Shown one piece after another: positions 21,152 through 22,100 of a stretch of 64,000 nucleotides of DNA. A program made the position numbers and the translations under genes. This DNA comes from a virus. Its lineage: Duplodnaviria; Caudoviricetes. How positions within the stretch are numbered: the first letter of the stretch is position 1; each line of letters starts with the position of its first letter. The DNA lies in the IMG/VR virus record IMGVR_UViG_3300029288_000097, positions 1 through 64,000 of that record. One strand, 5' to 3'. The notes beneath the pieces were generated by a model. The model was not told the origin of the DNA and did not search any database. It saw nothing but the letters and a program-made list of their open reading frames with translations.

Positions 21152-21703
21152 TTGAGAGCCATTTTTCTGGATCGTGACGGGGTTCTTAACCTGGAACAGA
21201 CAGGAATCTACGTAAACTCCCCAGATCAGCTGCTTGTATTTGATTTTGCTGCACCAGCCCTCGCCACACTTCGTTTGATCGGTTACAAATGTTTCCTAAT
21301 TACAAACCAAGCTGGTGTGGGTATGGGCTTTCTAACCGAAGATAGATTATCTGCTATTCACGAAAAGCTTTGCCAGAATGTTGGTGAGCTGAGTGGGATA
21401 TATACCTGTATGCATGCCAAAGATATAGGCTGTGACTGTCGAAAACCAAAACCTGGTTTGTTGCTTCAGGCAGCAATGGAGCATGGTATCGATCTTGGTG
21501 AAAGTTACTTCGTAGGAGATCGGCCATCAGATATAGAAGCAGCTTACCATGCAAGTTGTGTATCAGTAGCAGTCAAGTCTGGTTTTCTGGATGATGCTGC
21601 TATAGAACGTCTTGAATATAAGCCAGATATGGTTTTCAATGATGTGCTGGCTTTTGCTAATTATTTAGCTTTTGGGGGTAAAATGGCTTCGACGGGGAGT
21701 TGA
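21152..21703 (+). CDS. gmhB: D,D-heptose-1,7-bisphosphate phosphatase (HAD)
   Basis: AIFLDRDG, TNQAG, CMH....CDCRKPKPG, VGDR.SD; TTG start after AGGAG. Confidence 0.85.
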   Translation: MRAIFLDRDGVLNLEQTGIYVNSPDQLLVFDFAAPALATLRLIGYKCFLITNQAGVGMGFLTEDRLSAIHEKLCQNVGELSGIYTCMHAKDIGCDCRKPKPGLLLQAAMEHGIDLGESYFVGDRPSDIEAAYHASCVSVAVKSGFLDDAAIERLEYKPDMVFNDVLAFANYLAFGGKMASTGS

Positions 21704-22100
21704 ACGAGATCGATAGCGAGCAGAGGTTGGTCGGTTGGCCTCTATAAAAGCCGTCCAAACAGTAAATGCGAACACTGATAACAGTGGCGTAAGCCAGAGC
21801 ATCGTAGACCAGATCAATGCGAGAGATCGCGTTGGCTCCGAGGAAATGCTGCTCGCGGCCTAACGGCCAGGCTGTCGATGGGTATAAGTCCTCGTAATCC
21901 CACCGGCTCAAACTACGAGGAGTCTTTGAGGGCTAGGGGCTCTCCCGAGTTAGGCTCTCATCGTTCTAGTAACACTTGGGGGAATTGATGCCGTAGGCGG
22001 GCTACCGGCCATTAAGCGGGGAAGGAAACTGGTAGATACGCTCGTAGAAGTCGAAGTAGTTACTTTTCGGACATGGGTTCGATTCCCATTACCTCCACCA
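21674..22100 (+). ncRNA. ssrA: tmRNA
   Basis: 5' GGGGGTA...TTCGAC; 3' T-arm GGTTCGATTCC and TACCTCC-ACCA; G3:U acceptor pair; tag ORF 21768-21863 ends LAA*. Confidence 0.92.

What the first reader, a model, noticed from the sequence alone, without database searches (positions are those of the whole stretch)
21152..22100. tmRNA 5' end lies inside gmhB, so its maturation could create a non-stop gmhB mRNA
Seen: the last nine codons and the TGA of gmhB (GGKMASTGS*, 21674-21703) are the first 30 nt of the tmRNA. The clear promoter lies upstream of gmhB (21001-21030). Established: RNase P cuts pre-tmRNA at its mature 5' end, and non-stop mRNAs are tmRNA substrates. Inference: each tmRNA released leaves a stop-less gmhB message encoding the intact enzyme core, which would be tagged and degraded. 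This is a possible feedback loop linking ribosome rescue to heptose synthesis. Ribosomes finishing gmhB would in turn disrupt the acceptor stem.
Basis: partly seen in the sequence, partly recalled or inferred. Interest (0 to 1): 0.75.

Follow-up and report, generated by a model that had tools for sequence, protein, structure and literature searches.

The report
Phage gmhB gene reads into tmRNA
In this uncultured 114-kb phage, an 8-base deletion removed the stop codon of a sugar-phosphatase gene, so it now runs 30 bases into the phage's own ribosome-rescue RNA (tmRNA); close relatives keep the stop, so this is a private accident of tight gene packing and not a conserved control circuit.

Summary
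A full-length tmRNA lies at 21674-22100 (ARAGORN; Rfam 130 bits). The GmhB-like HAD-IIIA phosphatase ORF (21152-21703) ends at a TGA 30 nt inside it, and the tmRNA 5' end falls exactly on a codon boundary (F174|G175).

The overlap is not conserved. Six related contigs encode GmhB ending ...EYLIK. In the five whose junction was read, TAA lies 5 nt before tmRNA G1. The window is 8 nt shorter there. A more distant phage has a different small gene ending 6 nt before its tmRNA and has no gmhB.

Co-transcription is plausible. A conserved promoter and leader lie upstream, there is no room for an intergenic promoter, and no terminator was found. RNase P cutting should therefore leave a stop-less gmhB message in this one phage. 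The idea is already published for Carsonella smpB-ssrA (PMC4131195), and this scan has noted similar overlaps in other phages.

Verdict: a new member of a known kind, of low interest.

One unexpected lead: the most conserved 16-18 nt of the leader (21055-21072) is exactly antisense to the last tag codons (NYALAA) of host-type tmRNAs, but matches the phage's own tmRNA poorly.

The parts
20995..21030 (+). Promoter-like element TACCAGTTGCAT-N18-TATACT
   Evidence: The -35 and -10 are conserved while the spacer varies in L057-L061 and in G002. The signature TACYRGTTGCA-N17-20-TATACT occurs only twice in the 114-kb genome. Both copies are on the + strand and intergenic, and the reversed control gives 0. 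No experiment supports it.
21036..21046 (+). Predicted anti-Shine-Dalgarno strand (UGUCUCCUUGG) of the leader
   Evidence: The MFE and consensus folds pair it with 21138-21149, which includes the gmhB SD AAGGAG. z = -2.4, and the pairs are kept in relatives with one one-sided change. This is a prediction only.
21055..21072 (+). Most conserved leader core (GGCRGCGAGTGCGTAG and flanks), antisense to the tag end (N-Y-A-L-A-A and the first stop base) of host-type tmRNAs
   Evidence: There is one copy in the window. It is present in L057-L061 and in distant G002. It has an exact 16/16 antisense match inside the tmRNA of L065, and 15/15 matches in many Armatimonadota tmRNAs. Its function is unknown.
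21152..21703 (+). GmhB-like HAD-IIIA phosphatase CDS (183 aa), stop inside the tmRNA
   Evidence: NCBIfam PRK08942 scores 139 bits, below its 178 cut-off. TIGR01656 and TIGR01662 score above their cut-offs. The family profile ends at residue 172. The tail GGKMASTGS is absent from all relatives.
21674..21703 (+). 30-nt overlap: tmRNA nt 1-30, which are also gmhB codons 175-183 plus TGA
   Evidence: Read directly from the sequence. In alignments A1 and the window is 8 nt shorter than the relatives, which have ATC AAG TAA AG before TTT-G1.
21674..22100 (+). One-piece tmRNA gene (427 nt) with encoded CCA
   Evidence: ARAGORN and Rfam at 130 bits. The acceptor stem is G1-C, G2-C, G3.U, G4-C, and positions 5-7 covary across three lineages: GUA/UAC, AUG/CAU and CCG/CGG.
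21768..21863 (+). Tag reading frame (resume codon GCG, 31 codons, ends MLLAA, stop TAA)
   Evidence: ARAGORN places the coding part at 95-190 of the gene.
22108..22181 (+). tRNA (anticodon GTT) 7 nt after the tmRNA CCA
   Evidence: ARAGORN and Rfam at 66.8 bits. Relatives L057-L059 carry a tRNA-His(GTG) here, and L006 and L061 carry none.

Best explanation
The phage carries a working-looking tmRNA gene packed into a same-strand gene train. The order is: conserved promoter, conserved leader, one protein gene, tmRNA, tRNA.

In the ancestral layout the protein gene (gmhB in this clade) stops 5 nt before tmRNA G1. In this one genome an 8-nt deletion at the junction removed that TAA. The ORF now reads nine tmRNA-dictated codons to a chance TGA.

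The tmRNA is most likely cut out of a gmhB-tmRNA-tRNA co-transcript by host RNase P. In this phage each cut would then leave a gmhB mRNA ending exactly after codon F174 with no stop codon. Ribosomes on it would need rescue, and their product would be tagged.

This is an unselected, probably mildly costly by-product of extreme packing. It is not a regulatory circuit.

Shown: the anatomy, the deletion, non-conservation of the overlap, and conservation of the promoter and leader. Inferred: co-transcription, RNase P cleavage, and tagging.
For: - tmRNA and ORF coordinates.
- All seven members of the 90%-identity GmhB cluster end ...EYLIK. Five junctions from four samples show TAA-AG-TTT-G1, where the window has an 8-nt gap.
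- The GmhB family profile ends at residue 172 of 183.
- tmRNA acceptor positions 5-7 covary in three lineages, so tmRNA constraints set the overlapped bases.
- Flush junctions are usual on viral contigs. Gaps are 6 nt in G002, 1 nt in G005, and 1, 10, 12, 50, 95 and 102 nt in six further tmRNAs. None of these overlaps.
- The promoter and leader core are conserved upstream of two different ORF-tmRNA units, gmhB here and a FeThRed_B-like ORF in G002.
- No promoter-like or terminator-like site lies on the + strand in 20500-22700.
- TTT directly 5' of G1 is kept in the window, its relatives and G002. From established knowledge, U at -1 is favoured by bacterial RNase P.
- Published precedent and base rate: PMC4131195.
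Against: - There are no transcript data. Co-transcription and RNase P cleavage are inferred.
- The consensus promoter scan is insensitive. It missed even the conserved upstream promoter, so an internal promoter in the 3' part of gmhB cannot be excluded.
- In the window a weak -10-like TATTTA (21662-21667) sits 6 nt before G1.
- The direction of the 8-nt change (deletion here, or insertion in relatives) rests on parsimony and family length, not on a rooted tree.
- Only one genome carries the overlap, so its fitness effect cannot be read from conservation.
Confidence: 0.7

Rival explanations
1. The tmRNA has its own promoter inside the 3' end of gmhB, as cellular ssrA genes have their own promoter. 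Most tmRNA would then not be carved from gmhB mRNA, and the overlap would have little consequence.
For: The cellular-type tmRNA on L065 has a clear promoter of its own (TTGACG-N17-TATAAT) and a terminator. In the window a weak -10-like TATTTA lies 6 nt upstream of G1, and relatives have TATCTAAT 12-14 nt upstream. The scan is too insensitive to exclude weak promoters.
Against: No -35/-10 pair passes even loose criteria in 21560-21673 (and reading). The 3' end of gmhB shows ordinary synonymous variation among relatives. The conserved promoter and leader sit upstream of the ORF in both gmhB and non-gmhB phages. Read-through transcripts from upstream would still be cut by RNase P.
Confidence: 0.2
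2. One reading: the overlap is a selected feedback loop in which each tmRNA released causes GmhB to be tagged and destroyed, coupling ribosome rescue to heptose synthesis.
For: The geometry allows it, with the cleavage site exactly on a codon boundary. The phage has other heptose-pathway-like genes: a PfkB kinase at 10745-11653 and a SIS protein at 14609-15280.
Against: The overlap is absent from all six related gmhB contigs. G002 has a different gene before its tmRNA and no gmhB. The tail sequence is dictated by the tmRNA. The same kind of overlap in Carsonella is also patchy, in only half of the strains (PMC4131195).
Confidence: 0.04
3. The 8-nt gap is a sequencing or assembly error, and gmhB really has its own stop.
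For: Only one genome shows it, and both assemblies may derive from the same reads.
Against: Two assembly pipelines give the identical protein. The gap is not in a homopolymer, and flanking substitutions (AAT TAT TTA GCT against GAG TAT CTA ATC) show real divergence at the site.
Confidence: 0.03

Closest known systems
smpB-ssrA overlap in Candidatus Carsonella ruddii (Mao et al. 2009; Hudson, Lau & Williams 2014, PMC4131195)
   Same: An upstream same-strand CDS has its stop inside the tmRNA gene. tmRNA maturation is predicted to make that mRNA non-stop. The C-terminal extension is 'apparently random' sequence set by the depth of intrusion. The overlap is patchy among strains.
   Different: Here the CDS is a phage gmhB-like phosphatase and not smpB, so there is no self-referential loop with the tmRNA partner protein. 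The setting is a phage gene train and not a reduced endosymbiont genome. The overlap is seen in a single genome.
CDS/t(m)RNA same-orientation overlaps surveyed in bacterial genomes (PMC4131195, Table 4)
   Same: It belongs to the class 'CDS upstream, same orientation', which is rare: 250 cases per 115,660 t(m)RNA genes. The authors regard these as candidates for high-frequency non-stop mRNA.
   Different: That survey's table covered bacterial genomes, so phage tmRNAs were not singled out.
Phage-encoded tmRNAs (about 2.3% of isolate phage genomes, PMC9004378; huge phages, PMC7162821)
   Same: A complete tmRNA in a lytic-looking phage genome, embedded in an operon, with the host expected to supply SmpB.
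   Different: It is one-piece, with an unusually long 31-codon tag. It lies flush against the upstream ORF. It is preceded by a conserved leader that is antisense to host-type tag codons.
arfA mRNA (RNase III-made non-stop mRNA, cited in PMC4131195)
   Same: RNA processing removes the stop codon, so the product depends on ribosome-rescue activity.
   Different: In arfA the design is conserved and functional. Here nothing indicates selection.

Membership tests
tmRNA (Rfam RF00023, one-piece) | Covariance-model match above the gathering score over the full model | tested here: met
   130 bits against a gathering score of 47, model positions 1-374. Relatives score 132.4, 146.6 and 73.7 bits.
tmRNA (Rfam RF00023, one-piece) | tRNA-Ala-like acceptor stem with G3.U70 and a 3' CCA | tested here: met
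   GGGGGUA pairs with UACCUCC-ACCA, read. Compensatory changes at positions 5-7 occur in L006 and L057.
tmRNA (Rfam RF00023, one-piece) | Tag reading frame with a resume codon and a hydrophobic ...LAA end | tested here: met
   ARAGORN tag of 31 codons ending MLLAA*.
tmRNA-SmpB system | SmpB partner protein available | tested here: not met
   No PF01668 match in the complete 114-kb phage record. Host SmpB would be needed, and the host is unknown.
GmhB (D-glycero-D-manno-heptose-1,7-bisphosphate 7-phosphatase, HAD-IIIA) | HAD-IIIA and histidinol-phosphatase-type domain above the curated cut-off | tested here: met
   TIGR01656 scores 110.9 bits (cut-off 84.15) and TIGR01662 scores 90.7 bits (cut-off 44.6). 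The motifs DRDGV, TNQ, RKPKPG, GDRPSD and C-x-H...C-x-C are intact.
GmhB (D-glycero-D-manno-heptose-1,7-bisphosphate 7-phosphatase, HAD-IIIA) | Equivalog-level score for GmhB | tested here: not met
   PRK08942 scores 139.2 bits, below its 178 cut-off. TIGR00213 scores 104.1 bits, below its 149.6 cut-off. 'GmhB-like' is therefore the safe name.
GmhB (D-glycero-D-manno-heptose-1,7-bisphosphate 7-phosphatase, HAD-IIIA) | Other heptose-pathway genes in the same genome | tested here: inconclusive
   A PfkB-family kinase (10745-11653) and a SIS_2 protein (14609-15280) are present, with a glycosyltransferase. No heptose nucleotidyltransferase was looked for or found.
CDS-tmRNA overlap giving a non-stop mRNA (Carsonella type) | Same-strand upstream CDS whose stop lies inside the mature tmRNA | tested here: met
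   TGA at 21701-21703, which is tmRNA nt 28-30.
CDS-tmRNA overlap giving a non-stop mRNA (Carsonella type) | CDS and tmRNA on one transcript, cleaved by RNase P at G1 | not testable with these tools
   Indirect support only: a flush junction, a conserved upstream promoter and leader, and no terminator.
Selected regulatory overlap (feedback device) | Overlap conserved among relatives | tested here: not met
   Six related contigs keep their own stop, and G002 has another gene there.

The most novel reading that the evidence does not exclude
The conserved unit may be an anti-host-tmRNA device, not the gmhB overlap. The transcript that carries the phage tmRNA begins with a conserved 16-18-nt element (21055-21072). 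This element can form an uninterrupted duplex with the last five tag codons, and the first base of the stop codon, of host-type (Armatimonadota) tmRNAs. The phage's own tmRNA has changed those codons (MLLAA) and largely escapes this pairing. The phage would thus block or sense the host's ribosome-rescue RNA while supplying its own version, which writes a different and much longer tag.
Probability: 0.25. Interest if true: 0.8.

Novelty: new member of a known kind. Interest (0 to 1): 0.3.

Why it matters
As given, the finding matters little. It is one more case of a rare but already described situation, a gene whose stop codon lies inside a tmRNA gene. Here it was caused by a recent 8-base deletion and is not kept by any relative. 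Its modest value is as a natural experiment: two near-identical phage junctions, with and without a stop, could test whether tmRNA excision really turns the upstream message into a rescue substrate.

Two by-products are more useful. First, phage tmRNA genes in this and other lineages sit within 1-12 nt of the upstream stop codon, which suggests they are routinely carved out of mRNAs. Second, the conserved leader of this tmRNA operon is antisense to the tag end of host-type tmRNAs. If that pairing is functional, phages would interfere with host ribosome rescue at the RNA level while bringing a replacement.

Tried and rejected
- Searching viral contigs with the GmhB protein alone found no relative. 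Relatives were reached through the neighbouring dUTPase and HD genes and through the protein cluster.
- The contig of P0002 is not on record. The contigs of P0003 and P0005 (52% and 51% identity) are bacterial-looking or too short and show no tmRNA.
- ARAGORN missed the tmRNAs of G002 and G005, which Rfam found.
- The single metagenome scan for the junction, allowing both alleles, returned 42 loci. Only one was a true junction, and it was already known. No second copy of the deleted allele turned up.
- The viral-contig scan for the leader core gave 60 loci. Most carried no ARAGORN-detected tmRNA and are probably chance matches. Ten, with L065, had the motif inside a tmRNA gene of their own. 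Two were known or likely relatives (G002; L450 not checked). No new phage family with the leader was found.
- The simple promoter and terminator scan found nothing on the + strand, but it also missed the conserved upstream promoter, so it is weak evidence.
- A minus-strand ORF ending in YALAA was considered as an explanation for the leader core and rejected, because the frame reads on (DYALAALYL...).
- A planned position-weight promoter scan, a dN/dS estimate for gmhB and a larger junction survey were not done.

Full report
**What is there**

The window is the first 64 kb of a 113,976-bp IMG/VR virus record that CheckV rates as complete.
- ARAGORN calls a one-piece tmRNA at 21674-22100 on the + strand, with a 31-codon tag ending MLLAA.
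- Rfam RF00023 matches the same coordinates over its whole model at 130 bits, against a gathering score of 47.
- Upstream on the same strand is an ORF listed as 21098..21703. Its likely start is TTG at 21152, behind AAGGAG.
- The ORF is a HAD-IIIA phosphatase of the GmhB/histidinol-phosphatase type. TIGR01656 and TIGR01662 score above their cut-offs. The GmhB equivalog PRK08942 scores 139 bits, below its cut-off of 178.
- A PfkB kinase and a SIS-domain protein a few kb upstream fit a heptose pathway.
- The TGA of the ORF is tmRNA nt 28-30. Because 21674-21152 = 522 = 3 x 174, the mature tmRNA 5' end falls exactly between codons F174 and G175.

**The overlap is private**
- The nearest relatives of the protein form a 90%-identity cluster at 74% identity to the window. 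All seven members end ...AFAEYLIK.
- Five contigs from four samples carry the junction: L006, L057, L058, L059 and L061. All read GAG TAT CTA ATC AAG TAA AG TTT, followed by tmRNA G1. The window reads AAT TAT TTA GCT TTT and then G1, which is 8 nt shorter.
- These relatives include two tmRNA variants, with tags ANTDNS... and AKTSDG....
- The GmhB family profile ends at residue 172 of 183, so the nine extra residues are not part of the fold.
- The tmRNA acceptor stem shows compensatory changes at positions 5-7 in three lineages: GUA/UAC, AUG/CAU and CCG/CGG. The overlapped bases therefore answer to the RNA and not to the protein.
- The same 183-aa product appears in two assemblies.
- A metagenome scan that allowed either allele found no second copy of the deleted form.

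**Tight packing is the rule; gmhB is not**
- A more distant complete phage (G002, 98 kb) has a tmRNA at 146.6 bits. It is preceded, 6 nt away, by the stop of a 56-aa ferredoxin-thioredoxin-reductase-like ORF. It has no gmhB anywhere.
- An unrelated 200-kb phage (G005) has an ORF stop 1 nt before its tmRNA.
- I looked at 80 viral-contig loci fetched with a tmRNA 3'-end pattern. Six further complete tmRNAs had upstream-ORF gaps of 1, 10, 12, 50, 95 and 102 nt. None overlapped. I did not establish whether those six are phage genes or host flanks.
- In bacterial genomes the published rate of an upstream same-strand CDS overlapping a t(m)RNA gene is 250 per 115,660 genes (PMC4131195).

**Transcription**
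- Directly after the stop of the upstream beta-helix gene lies TACCAGTTGCAT-N18-TATACT (20995-21030). In relatives and in G002 the two hexamers are kept while the spacer differs.
- The signature occurs only twice in the 114-kb genome. Both copies are intergenic and on the + strand. The second lies before the head module at 50389-50423.
- Between this element and the tRNA at 22108 there is no terminator-like site and no promoter-like site on the + strand. The scan is insensitive, though.
- The bases TTT before G1 are kept despite the deletion.
- A cellular-type tmRNA on L065 shows the contrasting layout, with its own promoter and terminator.
- I infer that the tmRNA is released from a promoter-leader-ORF-tmRNA-tRNA transcript by RNase P and 3' trimming. 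This is not shown.
- In the relatives the upstream message would end 5 nt after its stop. In the window it would end without one.
- The leader is also predicted to sequester the gmhB Shine-Dalgarno sequence, with 21036-21046 pairing to 21138-21149 (z = -2.4). Translation of gmhB may therefore be limited anyway.

**Reading**

It matches an idea already published for Carsonella smpB-ssrA, where the overlap is likewise patchy and the extensions are called 'apparently random' (PMC4131195). Earlier notes of this scan report similar ORF-into-tmRNA overlaps in other phages. The proposed feedback between ribosome rescue and heptose synthesis has no support, because neither the overlap nor the gmhB-tmRNA adjacency is conserved. 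I read the overlap as a recent junction deletion that is tolerated or mildly costly.

**An unexpected lead**
- The best-conserved part of the leader is GGCRGCGAGTGCGTAG (21056-21071). It is unique in the window and is also present in L057-L061 and G002.
- It is the exact reverse complement of (AA)C TAC GCA CTC GCY GCC, the codons for N-Y-A-L-A-A at the end of ordinary tmRNA tags. The match is 16/16 inside the tmRNA of L065, and 15/15 in many Armatimonadota tmRNAs.
- With its flanks, the window version can form 18 contiguous pairs, one of them G.U, reaching the first base of the stop codon.
- The one variable leader base (A or G) faces the wobble U of the penultimate Ala codon, so both versions pair.
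- The target string is widespread in bacteria. Combined with the pseudoknot-1 strand that the phage tmRNA shares with its closest cellular look-alikes (85-88% identity over nt 43-101), it occurs only in Armatimonadota MAGs plus one unclassified MAG: 7 of 7 hits. Those tmRNAs have short tags such as ANNNYALAA.
- The phage's own tag ends ATG CTG CTC GCG GCC, or CTC CTG GCT GCT in G002, and matches the leader poorly.
- I estimate that a chance match of this length to any of the tmRNA genes held when I searched is of the order of 1e-5.
- The cause of the match is open. It could be antisense control of host tmRNA, sensing of host tmRNA, or a conserved relic. No other phage family with this element was found, and one literature search found no description of it.

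**Limits**

There are no transcript data and the host is unknown. The script machine was lost, so a weighted promoter scan, a dN/dS estimate and a larger junction survey were not run.

Noticed in passing
window 21055-21072 (also L057:5967-5982, L053:1113-1128): The conserved leader core GGCRGCGAGTGCGTAG is exactly antisense to the last tag codons (NYALAA) of host-type tmRNAs, including Armatimonadota tmRNAs. It matches the phage's own tmRNA tag end poorly. It may be an anti-host-tmRNA or tmRNA-sensing element.
   Followed up: partly
window 20995-21030 and 50389-50423: The two copies of the promoter-like signature GGTA-N-TACCAGTTGCAT-N17/18-TATACT are the only ones in the 114-kb genome. One lies before the gmhB-tmRNA unit and one before the head-gene module. 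This suggests a shared promoter class, possibly with an upstream inverted-repeat operator.
   Followed up: partly
window 21036-21046 with 21138-21149: The predicted leader helix sequesters the gmhB Shine-Dalgarno sequence (AAGGAG). A long hairpin at 21078-21131 lies between the two strands, followed by a T-run. The helix is kept in relatives although the hairpin sequence differs.
   Followed up: partly
window 21768-21863; L053:1501-1930; L267-L276, L319-L325: The phage tmRNAs of this family encode 29-34-codon tags ending MLLAA. The closest cellular tmRNAs (Armatimonadota, 85-88% identical over the pseudoknot-1 region) encode 9-10-codon tags ending YALAA.
   Followed up: partly
L053:1324-1494, L055:1877-2218 (minus), L084, L102, L118: On viral contigs the stop codon of the upstream ORF often lies 1-12 nt from the tmRNA 5' end. 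The upstream gene differs between phages. This suggests that phage tmRNAs are routinely excised from mRNAs.
   Followed up: partly
L007/L053 (G002) and L055 (G005): ARAGORN reports no tmRNA in these loci, although Rfam finds full-length matches at 146.6 and 73.7 bits. ARAGORN-only surveys undercount phage tmRNAs.
   Followed up: yes
window 10745-11653, 14609-15280, 16678-17736: A PfkB-family sugar kinase, a SIS_2 (GmhA-like) isomerase, a glycosyltransferase and several methyltransferases lie upstream of gmhB. Together they look like a phage-borne heptose or glycan module.
   Followed up: no
window 22108-22181; L057:7013-7089; L006: The tRNA after the tmRNA has anticodon GTT here. It is a tRNA-His(GTG) in L057-L059 and is missing in L006 and L061. 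The spacer between tmRNA and tRNA also differs by small indels, so this junction region is prone to indels.
   Followed up: no
window 25992-27062 and 25996-26070: The listed 356-aa ORF starts 4 nt before a tRNA-Gln gene and runs through it. The real start is probably downstream of the tRNA.
   Followed up: no
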